Shown here piece by piece: positions 3,848 to 46,307 of a stretch of 64,000 nt of DNA. The notes below the pieces were generated by a model. It was given only the letters and a program-made list of their open reading frames with translations. It did no database searches and was not told the origin of the DNA. Source of the stretch: a virus. Both the position numbers and the translations under genes were made by a program. Within the stretch, counting starts at the first letter, position 1, and every line of letters begins with the position of its first letter. The stretch covers positions 7,254 through 71,253 of IMG/VR virus record IMGVR_UViG_3300031784_000023. One strand, written 5' to 3'.

Positions 3848-4243
3848 TTAGGCCGCTTCGTTTTCCTCGTGTGGCGGCAATAGCGGCACGGAACACAATT
3901 CTTCGTAGTGCTTAGCCGAGTCAGACTCGTTGTGATCCCGATTAACCCACTCTAAAATCTTTAATTCACGGTCATGCCTCCAAAATAACTGTGTCCTATA
4001 CCACTCACACCATTCAATATTAGACTTTTTCAAGTTACAGCAACCGCATGACGGTATAAGATTTGCCCTAGTCGTTGTTCCTCCTCTCGATTTAGGTACA
4101 ACGTGATCCAGTGTTTGGGGGTCCTTTCGCCCGCAATATGCACACTCGTGTTTCCACGCGGCGAAGATGTCTTTTCTGAATCTCTTACGTGCTGTAGATC
4201 TTGTTAAGCACTGTAGCTCAAAAAGCAAATCATATTCCGTCAC
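3848..4243 (-). CDS. HNH endonuclease
   Basis: CAYCG...TLDHVVPKSRGG...NLIPSCGCCNLKK. Confidence 0.9.
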   Translation of the reverse strand: MTEYDLLFELQCLTRSTARKRFRKDIFAAWKHECAYCGRKDPQTLDHVVPKSRGGTTTRANLIPSCGCCNLKKSNIEWCEWYRTQLFWRHDRELKILEWVNRDHNESDSAKHYEELCSVPLLPPHEENEAA

Positions 4244-4312
4244 ACTGCAGGTGCGGACTAGCTACATTCTAAAGAATTAACACACAACCTGTGTTAACCG
4301 ATGCTAAAAAAC

Positions 4313-4825
4313 TCAGCTAACTAAGGGAATCGGGGGCTGAATCTCAATTTCAAGCTCAGACGTACTGATAGCGCGGCCGACGCGGACCGACGCACCGTAC
4401 TGATTCAGGCCCGAAGCACTGATGATGCCAGAACCAGTCGAATATGGCGTGATCTGTCCCTTGTACTTGGAAAGGAAGTAATCGGTGCCAGGTACCAGTT
4501 GCGTGCCGCCGGTGATGTTGGCGCCGGTAACGACCACGACGCCATCCAGATTGACTTCGACCTGCGAACCCGCCGTGACGGTCTGAGCTGCTGCACCGAT
4601 GGGGTAGTAGAACGCAGTCGCCACGCCGCTCAGCGCGGTAGCTTTGACCGCCAGGCTATTACCGCTGGTGTAGACGATGTCGCCTTGGGTCAGGTTCTCG
4701 CCCGCGAATAGGACGTAAGGCGACGTGTAACTCGAAGTCGTGCCGCCGCCGTTGACAAGCCAGACCTGGCTACCGTTTGAGGTGTAGCTGGTGTAACTGC
4801 GGTTGAAAATATTACGGGAAGTCAT
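4313..4825 (-). CDS. Putative virion structural protein
   Basis: G/S/T-rich beta protein, similar in style to 6305-6781; lies in tail-gene context. Confidence 0.6.
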   Translation of the reverse strand: MTSRNIFNRSYTSYTSNGSQVWLVNGGGTTSSYTSPYVLFAGENLTQGDIVYTSGNSLAVKATALSGVATAFYYPIGAAAQTVTAGSQVEVNLDGVVVVTGANITGGTQLVPGTDYFLSKYKGQITPYSTGSGIISASGLNQYGASVRVGRAISTSELEIEIQPPIPLVS

Positions 4826-4854
4826 ATTAAGTAACCTGCTTATACGTTATTTTA

Positions 4855-5535
4855 TCAAACCCAGGTATTTAAATCAGTCCGTTTCCAAGTATTTGTGGCT
4901 GTACAAACGTAGAGATAATTAGTATCCCAAGCAATCTGTCCTGCTGTTCCAGATGCCGAGGCAGATGCCGGAGTTTTAGACATCTCAATCTGAAAATTAT
5001 CATCTTCTACACGAACATATTCGTTAGTAACCGCAAGTTTACCTATTCCACTGACTGCAATACCGACAAAATACTGTCCAGACCCGTAAACACCGCCTGT
5101 GCCTACTCGAATACCTGGTGTTGATACAGTGCCGCCACTAGCGACAATAGCCCCTGTCATAGAGCCGCCGGATTTAGGCAGCGCATTTGTTCCTACGACT
5201 AAAGCAGCATTGCCAGAAGCTAATGCCGTCGAACTAACACCTAACGCAGCATTACCGCTAGATAACGCAATTAACGCTAGAGAAATTCCTGCATTACCAG
5301 AAGCTGCAGCACGACCGTCAATACCCAGTTTACTATCCGCAGAGAAATAAAGACCGCTAGGATTAGAAATTAAAGAAACGTCTAGCCTGGGATTACTACC
5401 AAAAAAACCCCCTCCGATCAAGCCACTACCAGCAATAATTTGCTGACTTTGGTATAAAGCGCCGTCTACATTATCACCTACAGGCAACTCGGATTGAACA
5501 CCGCTAACTAAAACGATCGGCCGACGAGTAGCCAT
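4855..5535 (-). CDS. Putative tail fibre protein
   Basis: Repeated [AS]SGNA motifs; C-terminal GQIAWDTNYLYVCTATNTWKR fibre-tip motif. Confidence 0.65.
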   Translation of the reverse strand: MATRRPIVLVSGVQSELPVGDNVDGALYQSQQIIAGSGLIGGGFFGSNPRLDVSLISNPSGLYFSADSKLGIDGRAAASGNAGISLALIALSSGNAALGVSSTALASGNAALVVGTNALPKSGGSMTGAIVASGGTVSTPGIRVGTGGVYGSGQYFVGIAVSGIGKLAVTNEYVRVEDDNFQIEMSKTPASASASGTAGQIAWDTNYLYVCTATNTWKRTDLNTWV

Positions 5536-23239: not shown

Positions 23240-24248
23240 TCAAGCGTTAAAGGAGTAAGCCACGGTGGCGAAATCAGCGTTCAGGAGTTCGAAACCTGCG
23301 TACAGGCTCCAAATCATCATGATGAAACGGCTGAAGTCGTCGTTGTTGTTCAGGAGCACCTGAGCGTTGTTGCCGCCGATACCGACGCCCACGCTCTGGG
23401 GACCGAAGAACATACCGATTGCACTCTCATAAGAAGCGCTGGTACCGCCGATGGTAGCAGTCTGACTCTGAGAAGGCATGTTGGTCGATTCGAAGAAGCG
23501 AACGCCTTCGAACACGAAACCGGTGGGCATGATGGGCTCACCAGCCACGAAGCTGGCTTGACCAAAGCCCTGACCCATGTAGATAGCAGCGTTGGGCTGC
23601 ATACCGGACATGAGGGGGTTGATCTGACCGTTGCCAGGATAACGAGCCACTTCACGGAAGTCGCTGTTCTGACGCAGGTGCATCAGGAAGGTAGGATCGC
23701 AAACACAGCGATAGAAACCGTCCTGATAAGTAGGAACGTTACGCTTACGCAGGCTCTTCACCACGCGCAGCAGGTCGTCCTTAACGTCGAACTTGGCTTG
23801 TTCGGCGTTGGAGTAGGTCAGCGAACCGACGGCAAGGTCGCCAGGGTAGTAGTAACCACCTTGGGTGTCGGAAGCTTGACCCTTAGAAACTGCTTTCAGG
23901 AGTTCGTTAATGAACACCCGGTCACGCCAACGACGATAGTCGTCGAGCAGAGTCAGCGAACCGATGGACTGGTGGAAAGCGGTGAGGTTACCGGTATCCA
24001 GCAGCAGGCGCTGTGCAGTGATCAGGGTTTCCCGAGCAATCTTAAAGGTGCTCGGCTGAGTGGGATCGGACGGATCAGCAGGACCGGTGTACTCCTTAAG
24101 AGTCACCAGCACTTTGTCCTTCACAATGTTGCGGCTGTTAGCAGTACCGATGGTCTGCTCTGCAGTACGCTCACGGGATTCCTTGCTGCCGGGGTTACCC
24201 CAGAAGCGATAACGATCAAGCTGAACGGTCTGGCCGGGTTGTTTGCTA
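23240..24248 (-). CDS. Major capsid protein, exon 2 (spliced product 371 aa)
   Basis: Frame is open upstream of ORF 23240-24124 to (F)SKQPGQTVQLDRY; GFVFEGVRFFES...DDFSRF capsid-like motifs; follows portal and scaffold. Confidence 0.85.
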
Positions 24249-25243
24249 CCTGTAATGCTTTAATAAGCACCGAGAGGCTCTTTATCCTCTCGTAACATCA
24301 ACTTAAGGGCGTTGATGAGTAGACTATATCTTCACCCACAGCAGGATTTTCCTCTGTTTGGGTGCTCCGCACTCGTGTCACCTTATCGGCTTCTACAACA
24401 AAGTTGTTGCGGTCAGCCTCGCTCCATTTTGACTTTCCTCGATTAGTTCGAGTGTCATAACGGAGGTCAAATTTGTATTGCATAGCTTTACAACCATAAG
24501 GCTTAAGTGCTTCTACAAAATTCCTAGCGTTTGTTCCGTTAGCACGAAGATTCCACAAATTTGGATTCTTTTTAGCTGAAGGTACGCGAGGAGTTAAAGA
24601 AGCTCCTGTAAGACTTTCTATCCAATCTGATACCGTCAAAGCAGTATCATAAGGGACGTATAAAGCCAGCTCTACAATGCGTTCCCTAATGTAAGGTTCC
24701 CCGGTTCGCGTAGATTGGCCACGCTTTCGCAGGTGTAAGTTCCCGTCGTCCATGTACAGAACGGCAAGACCCTCTAAACCAATATCCCTTAGGAAAGTAG
24801 CTGTAAAAACTTTCTTCCCTTGAGGATACAGTTCCCTATAAATAGGTATTAACAGCTCGTTCTGATTAGACCACCACTGACAGGAAGGAAAAGTTCCGGT
24901 CTGGCAGTCAGACTCGCGATCCTTTATGGGCTGTTTAATACCCAGAATTCGGTTTAAGCGCCCCACTTTCCAGCGAAGGAACTCAAACTGTTTTCTTGAA
25001 TGGGCTATGTGGAGACTAGGGTAAGTAGTCACCTGCCGTAAATGGCCGTCACCCAAACAAACCCCTTTTAAAAAGGAGCGATCGCTACGAGAGAGCATTT
25101 GAGCAGTGTTAGTCGTTGAACCTTCCAACCATTTCTGATTGGCTTGGCTGCTGATTGGCCTCCCTTTCGGGTCCGGCGTTCCAGCAATTCACGGAGTTTA
25201 ACCTAAAGGCTTTCACCTAAAGGGACTCTAGACCCATGGGTCC
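24249..25243 (-). mobile_element. Group I self-splicing intron (IA-like), 995 nt, in major capsid gene
   Basis: P AATTGCTGGAAC, Q AATCAGCAGCC, R GTTCAACGACTA, S AAGATATAGTCT; P1 GACUU/GAGUC with U.G at the splice site; terminal G; removal restores the frame (GAC TT^T AGC). Confidence 0.93.
24298..25098 (-). CDS. Intron-encoded two-motif LAGLIDADG homing endonuclease
   Basis: FLKGVCLGDGHL and GLAVLYMDDGNL motifs; ATG at 25098 (alternative TTG at 25128). Confidence 0.88.
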   Translation of the reverse strand: MLSRSDRSFLKGVCLGDGHLRQVTTYPSLHIAHSRKQFEFLRWKVGRLNRILGIKQPIKDRESDCQTGTFPSCQWWSNQNELLIPIYRELYPQGKKVFTATFLRDIGLEGLAVLYMDDGNLHLRKRGQSTRTGEPYIRERIVELALYVPYDTALTVSDWIESLTGASLTPRVPSAKKNPNLWNLRANGTNARNFVEALKPYGCKAMQYKFDLRYDTRTNRGKSKWSEADRNNFVVEADKVTRVRSTQTEENPAVGEDIVYSSTPLS

Positions 25244-25350
25244 AAGTCATGCACCACAACCGGCTCTGCAGCCATCTCTACAACATACGCTGGGTGCGGA
25301 CGGTAGAGCTCTGCGCCGAGCAGCTTCGGAAAATCATTGTCGACGAACAA
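25244..25350 (-). CDS. Major capsid protein, exon 1
   Basis: GGAGGT RBS then TTG; MFVDNDFPKLLGAELYRPHPAYVVEMAAEPVVVHD plus TT. Confidence 0.85.
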
Positions 25351-25430
25351 AGCGTCAACCTCCGAAGAACTACATACGTAATCTAACTAGAGAATCAATA
25401 GATTAAAAGACCCTTGTCTCGTTTTTAGCG

Positions 25431-26707: not shown

Positions 26708-27661
26708 TCAGGCTTGATCCAAGAACAACAGCTTGGCTCGCAGAGACTCAGGAGACATGTTGTTCAGGTAACGCCAAGCTTGATCAGGAGCTTGGTTCAT
26801 AACCTGGCCAAACTGTTCCCACTGCGCGTTGGGGTCTTGAGTACGCTGACCGCCGGTAGCAGCGGCAGGCACAGCAGGCACCTGATCGTAGTTGGGTGTA
26901 TAGGACTGCTGTTGGAGAGCAGTGCGAGCGTTATCGGCAGCGATCTGTTCGTCAGTGCGAAGATCGGTGGGATACACCTCGGTGAAGAACCGGTTGGTGT
27001 AGTCAGCCAGATGATCAGGATCAGTCAGAATCTGCTCCATAGCCATGCCACGGGTGGCGATTTGCTCCAGAGTCTGATGCTGTTGAATCAGCGCATCCTC
27101 CAGGGTGGTGGAGTACTGATTCAAGATCGCAGGCGCTTCGAGGCCGAAGTGATTAACTACGGCGGCGCTTGCTTGGCTTAACTGCGGCTCCTGCGCCGTA
27201 GAAGTCGGCGAGGAAATTGGGGTCGTATAGACGCTGTTGGATAAGGTCGGCTGAACCGTAGGGGGTTGGTAAGCCCAGGGCTGTTGGGCCTGTAAAGCCA
27301 GATTGCTCTGTTGAATATCCGGCGCCGCTACCTGGGGCTGCGCTAACGATGCTGTCTGGCTGAGGGACGGGGAGAGCCGGGAAACGATCCGGTCCAGGCT
27401 GCCCAGCGCTGCCTCCCATGGGTTGCTCGGGGAGGAGGCTGACGGAAACTGGCTGGACTGGCTGTTGATAGAAGGGACCGTAGCCAGTTGTGCCGGCGAC
27501 GGCGCTTGGGCTGTAGTTGCCGAAGCTACCGCCGGGGTAGGGGTTTGCGCCACCCACTGAGGGTAGACGGTTGAGCCCATATCCGGGGAGAAGGCCGCCT
27601 GGGGCGCCGCTACTGCCGGGGAGACCGGGCTCGGGGTCGAAGCTGGGATCGCTTGGCTCAT
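26708..27661 (-). CDS. Putative capsid scaffolding protein
   Basis: Between portal and MCP; disordered N-half, helical C-half. Confidence 0.6.
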   Translation of the reverse strand: MSQAIPASTPSPVSPAVAAPQAAFSPDMGSTVYPQWVAQTPTPAVASATTAQAPSPAQLATVPSINSQSSQFPSASSPSNPWEAALGSLDRIVSRLSPSLSQTASLAQPQVAAPDIQQSNLALQAQQPWAYQPPTVQPTLSNSVYTTPISSPTSTAQEPQLSQASAAVVNHFGLEAPAILNQYSTTLEDALIQQHQTLEQIATRGMAMEQILTDPDHLADYTNRFFTEVYPTDLRTDEQIAADNARTALQQQSYTPNYDQVPAVPAAATGGQRTQDPNAQWEQFGQVMNQAPDQAWRYLNNMSPESLRAKLLFLDQA

Positions 27662-29393
27662 AGCTGCCCGAGTAAGTTAGTTCTTGCGCGAGGTGATCGA
27701 ATGTGCGGTAGAGGAGAGGCGTTATATTTAACCTCGGATCTGCCGCTAAGGGCTGGGTCGGCGCAAGAGGGTGCGGCGACTGCATCAGCTGATTTAATGT
27801 TAGCAGGAAATTTTGTAGTGCGGCTTGCGTTTGTTGAATCATTCTGAAGGGGAAACCCTTCAACATTTCCGCTCGTTCTAAATCACTTTTATCCGGGAAC
27901 AAGTAACGCAGCGCTTCCACGCTGTCAACACCTAGCTCCTGAAGATTTCGAACAACGATCGATTTCTGGTTGATGTCGTAAGCGGTGTCTTCATAAACAT
28001 CGCCTTGGAATCGATACGTTACTTCTCTATCTCCGTCTGGCGGAAGACCAAAAACTCCACCAGGTACTTTGTTTTCAGAGAGGGCCGTTTGAATAGCAAG
28101 ATCTACATCCTGCTCGTACTTAGCCAGCTTCTTTTGATAACGTTCCGCTGCTTCCGGAGTTTCTTCTTTTGGCTCCTTGGGAGGAGTCAAACCCATGACA
28201 GAAATAAAACTCTCGCGGAAAACCTGCTCCTGGTGGTAAACAATCATTTCCAGCAGTCGGCAGAAGCCGTAGCTCAAAAAACTCTTATTTTTACGAAGAG
28301 CAGTCGCTTGAGCACGACCCATAAGGCCCTTAATTTCCGTCGCAGTGGCACCGGCGCTAATCGATATTTCGTCAACGCCGCCGAGTGCGGTTCGAATTTC
28401 TTCTCGTAGTAACAACGCATATCGATTCATGTCCCCGTTTACGGGGTCAGGAGTCATGTAACCAACCCGATCCGACGGCTCTACGTTGGCAATAATTCGA
28501 GGAACTCGAAGACCCCCGATACCAGACTGCGATCCGAACGGATCTGAGACCCTCGTGGAAGGAGAATCTAAACCGCCAAATCCGCTTTGACTGCTGATCG
28601 TCGGACGGAAGTTACGATCGGTATCACTCGCCTCCACCAGATCACTACGCGGACGCGAACTGATCAGAGTCGGATTACCAAAGAACTCAATGTTCTTGGC
28701 GATATTCTGCATCATTTGATCATGCAGAACGATCTGCTGCATGAACGGCTCGAATTCACCTTCGCCTTCGGTACCGCTGGCGTTCGGCTTGTTTAAAACC
28801 TCCACGGCGGGGATAAACCCCAGCGTATTTGGCCGACTATTGCGCGGAGTAATGACAGAGCCTGGCTCTAAGTCAAAACTCAGCTCCGTGTCGGCTTCGT
28901 ACTCTGTGATCGTCTCGGCCGTAATTGAGATACGGACGTACCTCTTGTTCTGCCCGTAAGTATTTGAAGGCAGTCCTAAATTGCCGTTTTTAACTTTGTA
29001 CGAATAAAGGATTACGACTTCTTCAATCTCTCCGTTTAGATCGTGGTAAACCCGATACTGGTTTTTGTTAAAAAAGTAAATTTGGTACTTCAGCTTGGGA
29101 TCGGGCCTGAAATAGAAAAGACCCGAACCGTCAATCAAAAAATTCCGAACGATAGCCGGGAAACGGATATCAAGTTTATTAAGTTTTATCAGATCATCTA
29201 GAAACTTACTACGAGCTTTATACGTATCTTGTTCACAGTAAAAAAACAGACCCTTCTTGATCATAAGAAGGGTCATCTGCTGCACATGACTCAGTACCAC
29301 CATCGTGGCGGACTGCTTTGAGCGGTCCTGAGTCCGAGCTGCCTCCAGAATCTCACTGAATCGTCCCCGGACGCTTAAAAGATCTGCAGGCAT
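27153..29393 (-). CDS. Portal protein (probable)
   Basis: 746 aa, located between terminase and capsid; IPAVEVLN...GEGEF...SAGATATEI portal-like layout. Confidence 0.7.
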   Translation of the reverse strand: MPADLLSVRGRFSEILEAARTQDRSKQSATMVVLSHVQQMTLLMIKKGLFFYCEQDTYKARSKFLDDLIKLNKLDIRFPAIVRNFLIDGSGLFYFRPDPKLKYQIYFFNKNQYRVYHDLNGEIEEVVILYSYKVKNGNLGLPSNTYGQNKRYVRISITAETITEYEADTELSFDLEPGSVITPRNSRPNTLGFIPAVEVLNKPNASGTEGEGEFEPFMQQIVLHDQMMQNIAKNIEFFGNPTLISSRPRSDLVEASDTDRNFRPTISSQSGFGGLDSPSTRVSDPFGSQSGIGGLRVPRIIANVEPSDRVGYMTPDPVNGDMNRYALLLREEIRTALGGVDEISISAGATATEIKGLMGRAQATALRKNKSFLSYGFCRLLEMIVYHQEQVFRESFISVMGLTPPKEPKEETPEAAERYQKKLAKYEQDVDLAIQTALSENKVPGGVFGLPPDGDREVTYRFQGDVYEDTAYDINQKSIVVRNLQELGVDSVEALRYLFPDKSDLERAEMLKGFPFRMIQQTQAALQNFLLTLNQLMQSPHPLAPTQPLAADPRLNITPLLYRTFDHLAQELTYSGSYEPSDPSFDPEPGLPGSSGAPGGLLPGYGLNRLPSVGGANPYPGGSFGNYSPSAVAGTTGYGPFYQQPVQPVSVSLLPEQPMGGSAGQPGPDRFPALPVPQPDSIVSAAPGSGAGYSTEQSGFTGPTALGLPTPYGSADLIQQRLYDPNFLADFYGAGAAVKPSKRRRS

Positions 29394-32053: not shown

Positions 32054-32947
32054 TCAGATCTGAAGCATTTTATCGCAAGTTATGAGCTCTGGCTGCGTCT
32101 TAGCCAGTTCTATCGAGTACTTGGTGTCATCGTGGGCTAACAAACAACAAGGATGCGGTTTATAAACACCGTTTTCTTCAATCACCGGGATGCAGCGACG
32201 GTGTTCATAGCCAAAAGGGACGTCCTCAAACGCTAAACCCATAGAACTCCGATCGGCAAGGGGCCAATTTCGAAAACTTACGATTTCAACGCTCTTCGCC
32301 GGGTCCATACTGCCACTTTTCACGTATTTGACTGCGTCAAAACTATCCAAAATCATCGCAGCGTAATAAGGACTTGCAATTTGGGCAAAAAACTTGATTT
32401 CGTGGTCGATAACGAGCAATTTCTTTACGTCAAAGCCTCGTTCTGACCAAACATTGGGAGTTCGCTTGGTTAAAAAGTACCGATAGTGGTTATCAAACGG
32501 TATTTTCTCCCCTTCGAAGACTTCATACCGAATAAATCCAGGTTCCAACCCGTATTCAGCCAGTCGAGGCTTCCAACGCATCCAATACTTAAAGTGTTCC
32601 CAAGTAATCAACATGTCATTTTCTTGATAAATGTAATAATCGTACTTGTAGTTCATACAAGCCAGCACAAGATCGTTTTTATGCGCCCACGTCAAGCCCC
32701 AGCCCTCATAACTGGAGCCGGCGATAACGATATTTAATTCCAATTGCTCCCGGAAAGGTCGCAGTAAGTTAGCTAATTGATTCGCATCATCCTGAGCTTC
32801 ATTATTTATGTAGATAAATACAGAAACTTTAAGGTCGTACTCTGTATAAAGCTTCAAAACTTTGAGCAGCTTCTCGACCCGAGCCAGCGGATTGTGCGCC
32901 GCAATCGCGACCCAAAGAGTTTTATCGGAAGTCATGTCAATACTCAA
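32054..32947 (-). CDS. Putative GT-A fold glycosyltransferase
   Basis: YDYYIYQENDMLI (DxD-like) motif. Confidence 0.55.
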   Translation of the reverse strand: MSIDMTSDKTLWVAIAAHNPLARVEKLLKVLKLYTEYDLKVSVFIYINNEAQDDANQLANLLRPFREQLELNIVIAGSSYEGWGLTWAHKNDLVLACMNYKYDYYIYQENDMLITWEHFKYWMRWKPRLAEYGLEPGFIRYEVFEGEKIPFDNHYRYFLTKRTPNVWSERGFDVKKLLVIDHEIKFFAQIASPYYAAMILDSFDAVKYVKSGSMDPAKSVEIVSFRNWPLADRSSMGLAFEDVPFGYEHRRCIPVIEENGVYKPHPCCLLAHDDTKYSIELAKTQPELITCDKMLQI

Positions 32948-35657
32948 CTGAAAAACTACCTCTACGTTGCAAGAAAGTGATTAACCAAGTGTATGCGTCC
33001 AATAAATCGTCATGCGCGGTAGCACCTACGTTAATCAGCTGATCGAAGAGCGCATCGAACTTGCGATATTTGTTAAAGACGACTTTCTGATTCTCCAAAA
33101 GACCGAGCGTGCCTCTAAAACGAGCAATCTTGTCGCCCCTAAACCCTTTGACTTCGTGAATATGAAGGTTACTAAGGCCCCTTTCGTTTAGAAGAACCCG
33201 CCGGAGATCCGCAGCAAGGCTTGCCTGATATGCCACGGATTCAACAACAAGCGTCACGGTGGAATACGTCGGCTGGTACTCGCCGTTGTACTTAGTTAGG
33301 ATGCCCCACTCAAGCAACATGTCGCATAGAAGGTCTATTTTTTCAAGGTTTCCTATAGAACGACACTGATGCGCATCAACGATATAATACTTATCTTTTA
33401 ATCGGCCCCCTAAAACAAAAGCTGTGTAGTCCGAAGTCTCATTTTTGCTTGCTGAAAGGTCGATGCCAAGAGCCAAACTATCAAATTCAGTCGCTACGTC
33501 ACCTTTAATCAACAGATCCGGGGAAACGACAAGGTCGCTCGTGGCCACAGGCTGCTGCTGATACTGGAAACAGAAAGCAACGGGATCAAGTTCTTTCTGC
33601 TGCAATAGGTAGTCAATAGACCATTGAGTCTGCCAGTAACTCTTGGGCTGACCCTTATCGTCGTACGTAAGTGCCTCTTGAGTTACTTGCTTCCACCCTT
33701 TCTCCGGAACGAACATCGTCTTGTGGATGTCGAGCGGATGGAATCGCGTACCTAAGCAAATAGATCGACCGCCCTCAAACACAATAGGAGCAATAACACT
33801 ACTCCAGTTATTATTCATCTCCTCACGAATCGTAGGATTCTTGATATCAGCTGAACTTTTTATAGGGTCATCGATTAACACTAAATGAGCTCGTTTAGAC
33901 GTAATACTACCGCGTAGTCCTGCTGCCCTTAGAGTAAATTCTTCATCACCTAATCGAGGAATACCGGCATAGTCATAATCAATCGACCAGCCGATATCTG
34001 ATTGCATCCCCGGCTTGAGTCGACATGTCGGAAAAATTTTACGAAATTCTGATGAGTCAACGATCTGTCGAATAATCCGTGATTTAGGGATAGCTGTAGC
34101 AATGTTGTAACTCACGTAGATAATCTGCAAAGGTCTTTTTGCAGTAGTATGACGTCCTATACACCACGCCGTAAACATATTCAACACCGTAGATTTAGCT
34201 GAATTTTTGCTAACAACATAGTCTTTAATCAAAAATCTTTCTTGCTCATTACTTACAGTTAAACACTTAACGTCGCTAGTACCAACAAACTCAATATCGA
34301 CAATAGACCGTACACAGCCGCGATTAGAACGCGAAGAAACGGGACCTAAGTACATATCTCTTTTTCTCTTGCAATAAAAAGGCTTGATGCCTTCTGGAAG
34401 ACTAATGCTCAATCTGTACGCCAGGTGCTTACTAACAATTTTTAAGTTATCCTTGTAATAGTGAGGATAATACGGTTTTGTAAATCTAGTTAAGCCTCCT
34501 AAAGAACGAACAAGCTCTTCCATACCACGAATCAAAGCAAGACTCGAACTGCCAAAACCCAAACCGCCTCGTCCAGAAAGTTCTTGTCCGTGATTACTTC
34601 TCTGACCATCCGAATCAAGCAGTCCTCGCAAAAGCCATTCGCGCTGTTCAATAGACCCACGCAGATATAGCTCGGGGATACTTTTTTCTAAGGCTCCCTT
34701 TCCTCGCATCCCCAGCTGATCAAGAACTAGAGATACGTACTTTTTAAACCCTCCCCGACGCCCGTCGATAACTTTTTGTGTAGGTCCTTCAGCAAGCTGA
34801 ATTTGATACGAATATTTCCGACTTTCGTAAGAACGCTCTACCAGAACATGTCCTTCAGGTAACATCGTGTTAATAAATTCGGCAATATCCCTATCTGCTG
34901 TAGTTATATTTATCGAAGTAAGGTCTGTTAAGCCTCCGTCCCCGAGCAAAATCCCTACGATATAGGGATGCAACGGTAGATCAAGCGTGGGGTATTGAAC
35001 AGGAGCAGTCATGGGCACTTGATACCTACTATGCCCTCTCGTATCTAGCCACGGGGTTTCGCCGGGCAGCGCTTTTCTGACTGTTCGTTTGACGCCTGTA
35101 CGCCAGTTACCTTGAATCCCTGTGGTGACCAGCTCGCGAATCTCTTGCAGAGTAACCGTCCTGTAAACTCCTTTCTTATCCGTACCCATTCGACGCACGT
35201 CAAACCGATGCGAATCGTCACAGATCATAGAAGTTCCGTCTGAGAAAGTAACCTTATAGACAGGGACTTCTGGGTACGAGGGAGTATCTAAAACTGTTGT
35301 AGGAAGGCCGTCATCTCCGTACACAGTATCTCCTTTGACAATATCCTTTAGCTTTCTCCAACCGTTTGGAGTGGCTACCTCTGTATCAGGGTGAAGAGGT
35401 CCCCTGGGAGCCAAAATATCAAGATTTAGTCCCGCGATGTCTAAAAGGTACTTATTACTTTCATTAGTAATCAAATGCTGATGCCATTCCAGCATATGAG
35501 GCGCCGGAGGCTTGTCCAGAATAGTACAAAAAGTATGAAAGTCTTCGGCTGCTTTAGTGTAAATAGTTTCGATTGAATTCGCGCCAGTGGCTTCAATCGC
35601 TTTAAGTGCACGTAGTTGGGCGCCACGGCGGTAGGCAAAACTCTCCCTACTAGGCAT
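32937..35657 (-). CDS. terL: Terminase large subunit (intein-containing; 507 aa after splicing)
   Basis: APRG^SAKST Walker A, LVLIDDP Walker B, GTRFH, LGIDLS nuclease motif, HDDLLDA. Confidence 0.93.
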   Translation of the reverse strand: MPSRESFAYRRGAQLRALKAIEATGANSIETIYTKAAEDFHTFCTILDKPPAPHMLEWHQHLITNESNKYLLDIAGLNLDILAPRGPLHPDTEVATPNGWRKLKDIVKGDTVYGDDGLPTTVLDTPSYPEVPVYKVTFSDGTSMICDDSHRFDVRRMGTDKKGVYRTVTLQEIRELVTTGIQGNWRTGVKRTVRKALPGETPWLDTRGHSRYQVPMTAPVQYPTLDLPLHPYIVGILLGDGGLTDLTSINITTADRDIAEFINTMLPEGHVLVERSYESRKYSYQIQLAEGPTQKVIDGRRGGFKKYVSLVLDQLGMRGKGALEKSIPELYLRGSIEQREWLLRGLLDSDGQRSNHGQELSGRGGLGFGSSSLALIRGMEELVRSLGGLTRFTKPYYPHYYKDNLKIVSKHLAYRLSISLPEGIKPFYCKRKRDMYLGPVSSRSNRGCVRSIVDIEFVGTSDVKCLTVSNEQERFLIKDYVVSKNSAKSTVLNMFTAWCIGRHTTAKRPLQIIYVSYNIATAIPKSRIIRQIVDSSEFRKIFPTCRLKPGMQSDIGWSIDYDYAGIPRLGDEEFTLRAAGLRGSITSKRAHLVLIDDPIKSSADIKNPTIREEMNNNWSSVIAPIVFEGGRSICLGTRFHPLDIHKTMFVPEKGWKQVTQEALTYDDKGQPKSYWQTQWSIDYLLQQKELDPVAFCFQYQQQPVATSDLVVSPDLLIKGDVATEFDSLALGIDLSASKNETSDYTAFVLGGRLKDKYYIVDAHQCRSIGNLEKIDLLCDMLLEWGILTKYNGEYQPTYSTVTLVVESVAYQASLAADLRRVLLNERGLSNLHIHEVKGFRGDKIARFRGTLGLLENQKVVFNKYRKFDALFDQLINVGATAHDDLLDAYTWLITFLQRRGSFSVEY
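34203..35399 (-). mobile_element. 399-aa intein with LAGLIDADG endonuclease, class-3-like
   Basis: PLHPDTEVATPNGW start; GILLGDG and LRGLLDSDG; VKCLTV; ends VVSKN followed by Ser. Confidence 0.9.
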
Positions 35658-46225: not shown

Positions 46226-46307
46226 TACCCAGGACGAGACTCGAACTCGTACAGCATAACGCCTCAGCATTTTAAGTGCTGTGTGTCTACCATTCCACCA
46301 CCTGGGC
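46226..46307 (-). tRNA. trnL: tRNA-Leu(UAA), intron-less
   Basis: GCCCAGG/CCTGGGT acceptor stem, GGTGGAATGGTAGACAC D arm, CAGCA-CTTAAAA-TGCTG anticodon arm, long variable arm, GTTCGAGTC. Confidence 0.95.

What the first reader, a model, noticed from the sequence alone, without database searches (positions are those of the whole stretch)
23240..25350. Major capsid protein gene interrupted by a group I intron
Seen: a 107-nt exon 1 (missed by ORF calling) and a 1009-nt exon 2 join in frame as ...VVHD-F-SKQPGQ. All of P/Q/R/S, P1 with the U.G wobble, P3 (CUCCGU/GCGGAG), P8, P9 hairpins and the terminal G are present. Established: phage group I introns mostly occupy DNA-metabolism genes, with some in lysin, terminase or psbA genes. 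Inference: the most abundant virion protein depends on self-splicing, which makes splicing a possible checkpoint for capsid production.
Basis: partly seen in the sequence, partly recalled or inferred. Interest (0 to 1): 0.8.

Follow-up and report, generated by a model that had tools for sequence, protein, structure and literature searches.

The report
Mobile intron splits phage capsid gene
The only major capsid gene of this uncultured relative of cyanophage S-EIV1 is split by a mobile self-splicing-type (group I) intron carrying its own homing endonuclease, which is real but of a kind already described in other phages.

Summary
Intron-less relatives fix the junction: S-EIV1 has one uninterrupted 383-aa ORF, and a 371-aa metagenome protein equals exon 1 + F + exon 2. 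Rfam's group I model matches end to end (48.7 bits, cutoff 50, E 5e-11). On 15 variants, 27 of 80 pairs in my P1-P9.2 model change on both sides, against at most 5 in slid controls. The intron ORF is a two-motif LAGLIDADG homing endonuclease. The host protein has an HK97-type capsid fold and is the only copy in the 71-kb record.

Of the 80 closest capsid loci, 15 carry the intron, 62 lack it, 2 are split elsewhere and 1 is cut off, so it is an optional selfish element. The "checkpoint" idea has no support. Splicing is inferred, not shown.

Introns in phage capsid genes are in print (mycobacteriophage LittleE, Tuc2009, crAss-like phages), and this scan has noted many on other DNA. New details are the cyanophage lineage, two sister introns 2 nt apart, and extra introns in relatives' capsid genes.

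The parts
25359..25363 (-). Shine-Dalgarno-like GGAGG, 8 nt upstream of the TTG start of the capsid gene
   Evidence: Read directly.
25244..25350 (-). Capsid gene exon 1 (107 nt: TTG start, 35 codons plus TT of the Phe codon)
   Evidence: It matches residues 1-37 of the intron-less protein P0001 and the start of the S-EIV1 ORF. In 34 intron-bearing loci, differences from the window fall 33, 0 and 413 at codon positions 1, 2 and 3.
24249..25243 (-). Group I intron, 995 nt
   Evidence: RF00028 hit, E 5.3e-11. Covariation on 15 variants. Same-site gaps of 989-1010 nt in relatives against gap 0 in intron-less loci.
25224..25248 (-). P1: exon GACUU (25248-25244) paired with the guide sequence GAGUC (25228-25224), U.G at the splice site, with a 5-bp extension hairpin (25243-25230) and a CAUG loop
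   Evidence: The extension helix has 4 pairs with both-side changes (helix 2). Exon 1 ends in U in 34 of 34 loci.
25228..25230 (-). In-frame UAG stop, ending 16 nt into the intron and overlapping the guide sequence. It ends translation that runs on from exon 1.
   Evidence: ORF 25228..25350. An in-frame stop ends 2-16 nt past the 5' splice site in 34 of 34 loci.
25202..25223 (-). P2 hairpin with GAAA loop
   Evidence: 3 pairs with both-side changes (helix 3).
25191..25196 (-). P3, 5' strand CUCCGU
   Evidence: 100% of cells paired and 2 compensatory pairs (helix 4).
25121..25186 (-). P4-P5-P5b-P6-P6a domain (two GAAA loops)
   Evidence: 95.6-100% of cells paired across helices 5-9. P4 and P6 are invariant (helices 5-9).
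25110..25114 (-). P7, 5' strand GACUA (pseudoknot partner at 24322-24326)
   Evidence: Invariant in 15 of 15 variants (helix 10), so covariation is uninformative here.
24298..25098 (-). Intron ORF: LAGLIDADG homing endonuclease, 266 aa from the ATG at 25098 (276 aa if the TTG at 25128 is used). It lies between the P7 5' strand and the P3 3' strand. Its last roughly 24 codons run through P3', P8, J8/7 and P7' into P9.
   Evidence: PF03161 at 1.6e-12, 48.2 bits against cutoff 25. phrog_11023 at 4.7e-15. P0270 is 266 aa and 100% identical. Invariant columns by codon position are 111, 141 and 23 of 227 in the ORF body, against 27, 23 and 22 of 40 in the tail.
24365..24370 (-). P3, 3' strand GCGGAG
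24333..24364 (-). P8 hairpin
   Evidence: 7 of 13 pairs have both-side changes (helix 11).
24322..24326 (-). P7, 3' strand UAGUC, preceded by the conserved J8/7 GAAGAUAUAGUC
24255..24316 (-). P9 (24316-24297), P9.1 (24291-24272) and P9.2 (24270-24255) hairpins
   Evidence: 3, 4 and 3 pairs respectively have both-side changes (helices 12-14).
24249..24249 (-). Terminal G of the intron (omega G)
   Evidence: The intron ends in G in 34 of 34 loci.
23240..24248 (-). Capsid gene exon 2 (1009 nt including the stop; the first base completes the Phe codon)
   Evidence: phrog_1357 major head protein. HK97-type fold of the near-identical full-length protein.

Best explanation
This is a mobile group I intron that carries its own LAGLIDADG homing endonuclease. 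It sits in the single major capsid protein gene of an uncultured S-EIV1-like phage, presumably a cyanophage.

Inferred mechanism. The late transcript folds into the P1-P9.2 ribozyme. The guide sequence GAGUC pairs with the last five exon bases GACUU, with U.G at the cut. Guanosine attacks after U25244, and the freed exon then attacks after G24249. This joins TT to T and restores ...VVVHD-F-SKQPGQ... and a 371-aa HK97-fold capsid protein. Ribosomes that start on unspliced RNA stop at a UAG inside P1.

The endonuclease, translated from the intron, would cut intron-less capsid alleles of co-infecting relatives at the conserved VHDFSKQPG coding site. Repair from the intron-bearing copy then spreads the intron (homing).

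The element is selfish and optional, not a regulator. What is shown: the anatomy, conservation of the fold, protein-level selection on exon 1 and on the endonuclease, and the presence/absence polymorphism. What is inferred: splicing, cleavage and homing.
For: Junction. An uninterrupted S-EIV1 ORF and P0001 equal exon 1 + F + exon 2.

Ribozyme. RF00028 matches model positions 1-253 at E 5.3e-11. On 15 variants, 93.5% of cells pair against 33-45% when slid, and 27 of 80 pairs change on both sides against a shuffle mean of 13.6 (0 of 500) and at most 5 slid. The core, positions 45-134, is 74-79% identical to sequences that lie between split DNA-polymerase genes of Bacillus phages.

Splice signals. 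In 34 of 34 intron-bearing loci, exon 1 ends in U, the intron ends in G and the predicted join reads VVVHDFSKQPGQTV.

Exon 1 is still translated in carriers. Its differences from the window fall 33, 0 and 413 at codon positions 1, 2 and 3.

Endonuclease. It matches PF03161 and phrog_11023. The ORF is intact at 251-266 aa in 33 of 34 loci. Invariant columns fall 111, 141 and 23 of 227 by codon position, a coding signature.

Host gene. phrog_1357 at 4.7e-22. A profile hits solved major capsid proteins: 26de_S at 3.6e-5 and 9vye_A at 0.0036. The AF2 model has pLDDT 78.4, and its Foldseek top hits are all phage capsids, led by 8i4l_A at 7e-14. The gene lies downstream of terminase and portal and is the only copy in the record.

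Mobility pattern. Among the 80 closest capsid loci, 15 have the intron, 62 lack it, 2 are split elsewhere and 1 is cut off. Carriers and non-carriers interleave on the exon-2 tree.
Against: Splicing was not observed. RNA-library contigs in 3 runs from 2 studies join 25244 to 24244 without the intron, but with four other letters that give Ser codon TCA instead of the window's AGC. They therefore come from another allele, which may simply lack the intron, and DNA carry-over cannot be excluded.

The Rfam score is 1.3 bits under the curated cutoff.

P4, P6 and P7 never vary, so covariation says nothing about them.

No endonuclease activity, cleavage site or homing event was tested.

The record is a metagenome assembly estimated 88% complete. 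A second capsid gene in the missing part cannot be excluded.

The host is inferred only from 67% protein identity to S-EIV1.
Confidence: 0.88

Rival explanations
1. Regulatory checkpoint. The phage uses the rate or conditions of self-splicing to time or limit capsid production, so the intron is kept for its regulatory value.
For: The single capsid gene is split, so capsid output cannot exceed spliced mRNA. The in-frame stop overlaps the guide sequence, so translation and P1 folding could interfere with each other. A psbA intron is said to affect expression in cyanophages (PMC8557907, passage).
Against: The intron is optional. 62 of the 80 closest capsid loci lack it, including L037 and L038, whose exon-2 protein is 100% identical to the window's. 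It carries an intact homing endonuclease under protein-level selection, which by itself explains its persistence. Nothing in the sequence points to a sensor.
Confidence: 0.06
2. Dead insertion. The element no longer splices, so the capsid gene is broken and the record is a defective phage, or the capsid is made from exon 2 alone.
For: There is no direct splicing evidence. The Rfam score is just under the cutoff. The endonuclease ORF is cut to 140 aa in 1 of 34 relatives, L064.
Against: Compensatory changes keep the helices in diverged copies. Exon 1 differences in carriers are almost all at third codon positions, 413 of 446. Splice-site U and G are kept in 34 of 34 loci. All full-length homologues start with the exon-1 sequence. 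The stretch is held in at least 14 DNA runs from 13 studies at half or more of its sampled words.
Confidence: 0.03
3. Another kind of intervening element: an intein, a group II intron, a free-standing endonuclease cassette or an assembly chimera.
For: The endonuclease ORF would look the same in a free-standing cassette.
Against: The insert is not in frame, with a stop 16 nt in, so it is not an intein. The only Rfam match of any weight on the stretch is group I (the sole other hit is a chance-level E 2.3), and no reverse transcriptase ORF was seen. The endonuclease is flanked by covarying ribozyme helices. The same insertion is seen in 34 separate contigs with both junctions, so it is not a chimera.
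Confidence: 0.01

Closest known systems
Group I intron in the major capsid gene of mycobacteriophage LittleE (Pope et al. 2013, PMC3706429; passages read)
   Same: An intron with a homing endonuclease ORF interrupts the major capsid gene near its 5' part. Exon 1 ends in U and the intron ends in G. It is present in only some close relatives. In LittleE, splicing was shown by RT-PCR and by N-terminal protein sequencing across the splice site.
   Different: LittleE's endonuclease ORF is on the opposite strand and its intron type was called 'most likely group I'. Here the ORF is on the same strand, runs into the ribozyme core, and the group I fold is supported by an Rfam match and covariation. The host lineage differs (Actinobacteria siphovirus against an S-EIV1-like phage). 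Splicing is untested here.
Group I introns in MCP genes of crAss-like Delta and Zeta phages (Yutin et al. 2021, PMC7886860; passages read)
   Same: Metagenome-derived phages with group I introns in the capsid gene, including genes with several introns. Relatives of this window also carry 2-3 Rfam group I hits in or beside the capsid gene.
   Different: Those are gut Bacteroidetes phages, and the introns were recognised there through protein domains. Here it is a freshwater S-EIV1-like lineage, with one intron in this genome and the ribozyme mapped helix by helix.
Introns between split DNA-polymerase genes of Bastille-like Bacillus phages, and the IA2 intron with I-PfoP3I in cyanophage Pf-WMP3 (PMC3428280; search listing and start of abstract only)
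   Same: The P3-P7 core (intron positions 45-134) is 74-79% identical to the Bacillus phage sequences. All are phage-borne introns in an essential, conserved gene that carry a homing endonuclease.
   Different: Those sit in DNA polymerase and, from recall, carry HNH nicking enzymes. This one sits in the capsid gene and carries a LAGLIDADG enzyme, a family the 2014 review does not list among those most often found in phage introns (PMC3984707, passage).
T4 td, nrdB and nrdD introns (recalled textbook knowledge; reviewed in PMC3984707)
   Same: [quoted passage not shown]
   Different: The T4 introns lie in nucleotide-metabolism genes and carry GIY-YIG or HNH enzymes placed in peripheral loops (recalled). 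Here the ORF lies between P7 and P3' and overlaps P3', P8, P7' and P9.

Membership tests
Group I intron (Rfam RF00028) | Match to the family covariance model at or above the curated gathering score | tested here: inconclusive
   48.7 bits against a cutoff of 50. The match covers the whole model, 1-253 of 253, at E 5.3e-11 on the 1351-base stretch. It was not listed in the default whole-window scan. The 740-nt ORF insertion costs score: ORF-less introns in relatives' capsid genes score 58.8-77.5 bits.
Group I intron (Rfam RF00028) | Conserved core of paired regions P3-P9, including the P3/P7 pseudoknot, kept in evolution | tested here: met
   On 15 variants, 93.5% of cells pair (33-45% slid) and 27 of 80 pairs change on both sides (shuffle mean 13.6, 0 of 500). 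P3, P8, P9, P9.1 and P9.2 all have compensatory pairs. P4, P6 and P7 are invariant, which is uninformative.
Group I intron (Rfam RF00028) | P1 formed by the exon end and an internal guide sequence, with U.G at the 5' splice site, and a terminal G | tested here: met
   GACUU pairs with GAGUC, with U.G at the splice site. In 34 of 34 intron-bearing loci, exon 1 ends in U and the intron ends in G. The second variant has its own matching guide, GGGAA.
Group I intron (Rfam RF00028) | Guanosine-initiated self-splicing that ligates the exons | not testable with these tools
   RNA contigs that skip the intron come from a different allele (Ser TCA, not AGC), so they do not show splicing of this copy.
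Subgroup IA (IA2-like phage introns) | Extra helices P7.1 and P7.2 between P7 and P3 | tested here: inconclusive
   The ORF occupies this position. A predicted long-range stem joins intron 137-175 to 813-852 at -23.8 kcal/mol. It pairs in 88.8% of cells (37-58% slid) but has 0 compensatory changes. The subgroup label itself is recalled, not tested.
LAGLIDADG homing endonuclease (Pfam PF03161, LAGLIDADG_2) | Match above the Pfam gathering score | tested here: met
   48.2 bits against a cutoff of 25, E 1.6e-12. Also phrog_11023 at 4.7e-15. All 34 homologues found carry PF03161.
LAGLIDADG homing endonuclease (Pfam PF03161, LAGLIDADG_2) | Two LAGLIDADG motifs in one chain, each ending in the acidic residue followed by Gly | tested here: met
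   Read from the translation...KGVCLGDGHL... and ...LAVLYMDDGNL.... The DNA of the second motif is largely invariant in the 15-variant alignment. The assignment of the catalytic residues is from recall.
LAGLIDADG homing endonuclease (Pfam PF03161, LAGLIDADG_2) | Site-specific cleavage of the intron-less allele | not testable with these tools
   Only the presence/absence pattern is available: 15 loci with the intron and 62 without, of 80.
HK97-fold major capsid protein | HK97-type fold | tested here: met
   The AF2 model of P0001 (97% identical to the spliced product) has pLDDT 78.4 and pTM 0.75. Foldseek gives 345 matches at E <= 0.001, and the top ranks are all phage capsid proteins: 8i4l_A at 7e-14, 9vye_A at 6e-13 and HK97 2ft1_G at 3.6e-9.
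HK97-fold major capsid protein | Sequence membership in capsid families, and position in the head module | tested here: met
   phrog_1357 at 4.7e-22. A profile hits solved capsid proteins at 3.6e-5 and 0.0036. Pfam Phage_capsid_3 matches 6 of 46 homologues and Phage_capsid_2 matches 3 of 46, but the protein itself has no Pfam hit. Portal and terminase lie upstream. It is the only copy.
HK97-fold major capsid protein | Being the main protein of the virion | not testable with these tools
   The S-EIV1 paper, which may hold virion data, is not held.

The most novel reading that the evidence does not exclude
The first ~110 codons of the capsid gene of this widespread freshwater phage lineage may be a contested homing target, and the intron may have re-aimed itself there.

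Two sister introns have near-identical catalytic cores and endonucleases about 80% identical. They sit 2 nt apart: TT|T-AGC in the window type and TTC-T|CN in the other. Each has a guide sequence matched to its own site (GAGUC against GGGAA), and each is tied to one of the two synonymous serine codon families, AGY and TCN, which both also occur among intron-less alleles.

This could record synonymous escape of the target site followed by retargeting of the intron and its endonuclease. The endonuclease might also serve in interference between co-infecting phages, as reported for PhiPA3 (PMC11620839, abstract start only).

Relatives add further group I introns at roughly codons 18, 31, 48, 90 and 108.
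Probability: 0.25. Interest if true: 0.55.

Novelty: new member of a known kind. Interest (0 to 1): 0.3.

Why it matters
For annotation, gene callers miss exon 1 and read the intron's 3' end into the capsid protein (P0006). Even the isolate S-EIV1 has its capsid gene annotated as two unrelated hypothetical CDS. Capsid-based surveys of this widespread freshwater phage lineage will therefore mis-size or miss the marker gene.

For biology, this is a well-populated natural series: 34 carrier contigs and 62 empty sites in hand. It could be used to study homing, intron gain and loss, and guide-sequence retargeting in an essential late gene. It also offers a LAGLIDADG enzyme with a defined natural target.

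It does not change what is known about how group I introns work. Capsid-gene introns are already described, and this scan has noted many on other DNA.

Tried and rejected
The Rfam scan at the gathering threshold on the whole window found only a tRNA. The intron appeared only in the E-value scan of the stretch.

Rfam's own placement of the P3 3' strand and of P8 inside the ORF was rejected. I used the placement next to J8/7, which covaries.

Pfam found nothing for exon 2, exon 1 or either neighbouring gene, and nothing for P0001 even at E 10. A single-sequence search of solved structures gave only chance chitinase hits at E > 0.1.

The first AF2 model, built on a shallow alignment of 35 sequences, was too poor to use (pLDDT 52.2). 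A second model, built on 46 more diverse sequences, was used instead.

RNA evidence. I laid four RNA-library runs, all kept as contigs. X15, X16 and X17 (two studies) each have one contig joining 25244 to 24244 with four other letters in between. That is an intron-free junction of another allele (Ser TCA), so it is not evidence that this copy splices. Those three runs have no cover of the intron, which proves nothing. X20 covers only 25064-25198, with loose ends on both sides.

A candidate stem closing the ORF (P7.1-like) has no covariation, so it is left as a candidate.

An intein, a group II intron and an assembly chimera were considered and rejected (see rival explanations).

The 'checkpoint' function was considered and is not supported.

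The S-EIV1 paper could not be read because it is not held. Its virion data may bear on the capsid assignment. Supplementary files of papers were not consulted.

Print searches for a capsid-gene intron in S-EIV1-like phages or in cyanophages generally were seen as listings, plus passages from PMC7431792 and PMC8557907. None describes one. Subscription journals are not covered by these searches.

I did not run a formal count of gains and losses on the tree. One search is a FastTree drawing only. In it I mislabelled L029 as the second variant, when it looks like the window type.
Full report
WHAT IS THERE

On the minus strand, a 40-codon ORF starts at the TTG at 25350. A GGAGG lies 8 nt upstream of it. 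The ORF runs into a stop at 25230-25228. A long frame open from 24247 to the stop at 23240 encodes 335 residues and has no start codon at its head. Between them lies a 276-aa ORF, 24298-25128.

It gives ...VVHD-F-SKQPGQ... and a 371-aa product.

THE JUNCTION IS FIXED BY INTRON-LESS RELATIVES

The only phage record in GenBank with a match is Synechococcus phage S-EIVl, at 67.4% identity over 99% of exon 2. There, one uninterrupted 383-aa ORF reads MFIDTDFPKILGAELYRPHPAYICEMAVEPVVVHDFTRQPGQTVQLDRY....

Among 872 homologues found, the closest is P0001 (371 aa, 97% identical). It begins MFVDNDFPKLLGAELYRPHPAYVVEMAAEPVVVHDFSKQPGQ, which is the predicted spliced product.

Moving either splice site by one base breaks the Phe codon or the frame, so the boundaries are unambiguous.

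THE INSERT IS A GROUP I INTRON

Rfam's RF00028 model matches 25239-24296 over all 253 model positions, at 48.7 bits and E 5.3e-11. That is 1.3 bits under the gathering score, which is why the default scan missed it.

I mapped the following elements:
- P1: exon GACUU with guide GAGUC, U.G at the cut, plus a 5-bp extension hairpin.
- A 3-bp P10 option: UAG of exon 2 with CUA next to the guide.
- P2, with a GAAA loop.
- P3: CUCCGU with GCGGAG.
- P4, P5/P5b and P6/P6a.
- P7: GACUA with UAGUC.
- P8, P9, P9.1 and P9.2.
- The terminal G.

Using the endonuclease and the capsid protein as queries, I fetched 35 and 80 related loci from IMG/VR. I then aligned 15 distinct intron variants. On that alignment:
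- 93.5% of cells form standard pairs, against 33-45% when partners are slid.
- 27 of 80 pairs change on both sides, against a shuffle mean of 13.6 (0 of 500 shuffles reach 27) and at most 5 in slid controls.
- P3, P8, P9, P9.1, P9.2, P2 and the P1 extension all contain compensatory pairs.
- P4, P6 and P7 never vary, so covariation says nothing for or against them.

The P3-P7 core is 74-79% identical to sequences lying between split DNA-polymerase genes of Bacillus phages, and to sequences in Alteromonas and Pseudomonas phages.

THE INTRON ORF IS A HOMING ENDONUCLEASE

The ORF matches Pfam LAGLIDADG_2 (48.2 bits, cutoff 25) and phrog_11023. It shows two motifs...GVCLGDG... and ...LYMDDG.... Gene callers start it at the ATG at 25098, giving 266 aa (P0270).

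The ORF lies between the P7 5' strand and the P3 3' strand. Its last roughly 24 codons run through P3', P8, J8/7 and P7' and end inside P9.

In the ORF body, invariant alignment columns fall 111, 141 and 23 of 227 at codon positions 1, 2 and 3. That is a clear coding signature. In the tail the figures are 27, 23 and 22 of 40, so the constraint there is on the RNA.

The ORF is intact at 251-266 aa in 33 of 34 carrier loci. L064 is cut to 140 aa.

THE HOST GENE IS THE MAJOR CAPSID GENE

- Exon 2 matches phrog_1357 'major head protein' at 4.7e-22.
- A profile of 46 homologues hits solved major capsid proteins: 26de_S at 3.6e-5 and 9vye_A at 0.0036.
- 6 of the 46 homologues match Pfam Phage_capsid_3 and 3 of 46 match Phage_capsid_2. 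The protein itself has no Pfam hit.
- An AF2 model of P0001 on that alignment reaches pLDDT 78.4 and pTM 0.75. A first model on a shallow alignment was unusable.
- Foldseek finds 345 matches at E <= 0.001. The top ranks are all phage capsid proteins, led by cyanophages P-SCSP1u and Pan3, and they include HK97 itself.
- Terminase (32937-35657) and portal (27153-29393) lie upstream on the same strand.
- The window belongs to a 71,253-bp IMG/VR virus record estimated 88% complete. That record has one copy of the intron and one capsid gene, split exactly as described.

EVIDENCE THAT CARRIERS STILL USE THE SPLIT GENE

In 34 of 34 carrier contigs with both junctions, exon 1 ends in U, the intron ends in G and the predicted join reads VVVHDFSKQPGQTV.

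Exon 1 differs from the window at 33 first, 0 second and 413 third codon positions. Exon 1 is therefore under strong protein-level selection in genomes where it is cut off from the rest of the gene.

An in-frame stop ends 2-16 nt past the 5' splice site in all 34.

IT IS OPTIONAL AND PATCHY

Of the 80 capsid loci closest to the window (at least 90% protein identity), the first 110 codons show:
- 62 uninterrupted,
- 15 carrying this intron,
- 2 split at other places (L073, L084),
- 1 truncated (L097).

The intron-less junctions all read VHDF(S/A)KQPG, with Ser in 61 and Ala in 1. The serine codon is AGY in 27 loci. It is TCN in 34 loci, plus L073, which is intact at this site.

On an exon-2 tree, carriers and non-carriers are interleaved. 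The window and L002 are sister to the intron-less L037 and L038 (a drawing only, with no formal test).

This is the signature of a homing element.

TWO SISTER INTRONS, 2 NT APART

The window type (13 loci) splits TT|T-AGC and has the guide GAGUC.

A second type (21 loci) has a near-identical core and an endonuclease about 80% identical. It has different P1, P2 and 3' ends. It splits TTC-T|CA or TTC-T|CT and has the guide GGGAA, which pairs with UUUCU or UUCU, again with U.G at the cut. My first automatic boundaries for this type were off by 1-2 nt. The corrected ones restore Ser in all 21.

DIRECT RNA EVIDENCE IS LACKING

Fourteen DNA runs from 13 studies hold at least half of the stretch's sampled words. 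Six RNA-library runs hold parts of it.

In three RNA runs from two studies, one contig each joins 25244 to 24244 with four other letters in between. This gives GAC TTT TCA AAA, an intron-free junction with flanks about 96% identical to the window. But the serine codon is not the window's AGC, so the contigs come from another allele, which may never have had the intron. DNA in RNA libraries also cannot be excluded.

COMPARISON WITH WHAT IS KNOWN

Capsid-gene group I introns are already described.
- Mycobacteriophage LittleE has an intron with an endonuclease ORF, and splicing was shown by RT-PCR and protein sequencing. The same paper cites lactococcal phage Tuc2009 (PMC3706429, passages).
- crAss-like Delta phages 'typically' have group I introns in the MCP gene, and a Zeta MCP gene is split into five fragments (PMC7886860, passages).
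- Jumbo gut phages carry about 18 introns per genome (PMC12880540, passages).
- The 2014 review lists GIY-YIG, HNH, PD-(D/E)xK and EDxHD enzymes as the usual ones in phage introns (PMC3984707, passage). A LAGLIDADG enzyme here is the less common case.

My searches found no paper describing an intron in an S-EIV1-like phage or in a cyanophage capsid gene (seen as listings, passages). The S-EIV1 paper itself is not held.

This scan's own notes hold many capsid-gene introns on other DNA. They are unchecked by me and were used only to temper the novelty score.

VERDICT

The 'group I intron in the MCP gene' reading is supported and the 'checkpoint' reading is not. This is a new member of a known kind, of moderate to low interest.

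The more interesting leads are the paired introns 2 nt apart with retargeted guides, and the crowding of further introns into the first ~110 codons in relatives.

Noticed in passing
L035 3461-3733; L036 2294-2530 and 2613-2863; L104 1141-1457; L073 1112-1432 and 1543-1711; L084 1570-2459: Relatives carry further Rfam group I hits (29-77 bits) in or beside the same capsid gene. With the tblastn breaks, they fall at roughly codons 18, 31, 48, 90 and 108. L036 has three hits, and L035, L104 and L073 have two each. In L104 a micro-exon of only a few codons seems to lie between two introns. Exact splice sites were not worked out, and the L073 hit at 1112-1432 may lie upstream of the gene.
   Followed up: partly
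L013, L017, L021, L027, L028, L031, L035, L064, L085 (alignment A1) against window 25224-25248: A sister intron sits 2 nt downstream of the window's site. It has its own guide sequence (GGGAA against GAGUC) and is tied to TCN rather than AGY serine codons.
   Followed up: partly
L001 3818-5044 (KJ410740.1 60784-62010): In the GenBank record of the isolate S-EIV1, the capsid gene (uninterrupted ORF at locus 3893-5044) is not annotated as such. A minus-strand 'hypothetical protein' CDS and a short plus-strand CDS cover it instead.
   Followed up: yes
proteins P0006, P0005, P0007, and short fragments such as P0142, P0203, P0210, P0217, P0223: Public gene calls of this capsid family include a form that starts with read-through of the intron's 3' end (P0006). 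Many others are 38-100-aa N-terminal fragments ending near residues 28-41, probably exon-1 ORFs running into introns. P0005 and P0007 have internal deletions.
   Followed up: no
window 24392-24431 and 25069-25107 (intron 813-852 and 137-175): The last ~50 nt of the endonuclease ORF before P3' are nearly invariant at all codon positions. They can pair with the region around the ORF start at -23.8 kcal/mol, a possible P7.1-like stem closing the ORF. There is no covariation for it.
   Followed up: partly
window 32937-35657: The terminase large subunit ORF is 906 aa. Its PHROG terminase matches fall into an N-terminal part (residues ~87-487) and a C-terminal part (from ~482).
   Followed up: no
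window 46226-46307: A tRNA gene with a long variable arm lies on the minus strand (59.5 bits).
   Followed up: no
L064 (alignment A1, near column 455): One carrier has a 1-nt deletion in the endonuclease ORF, whose longest frame is 140 aa, while the ribozyme helices are kept. This may be an early step of endonuclease decay.
   Followed up: no
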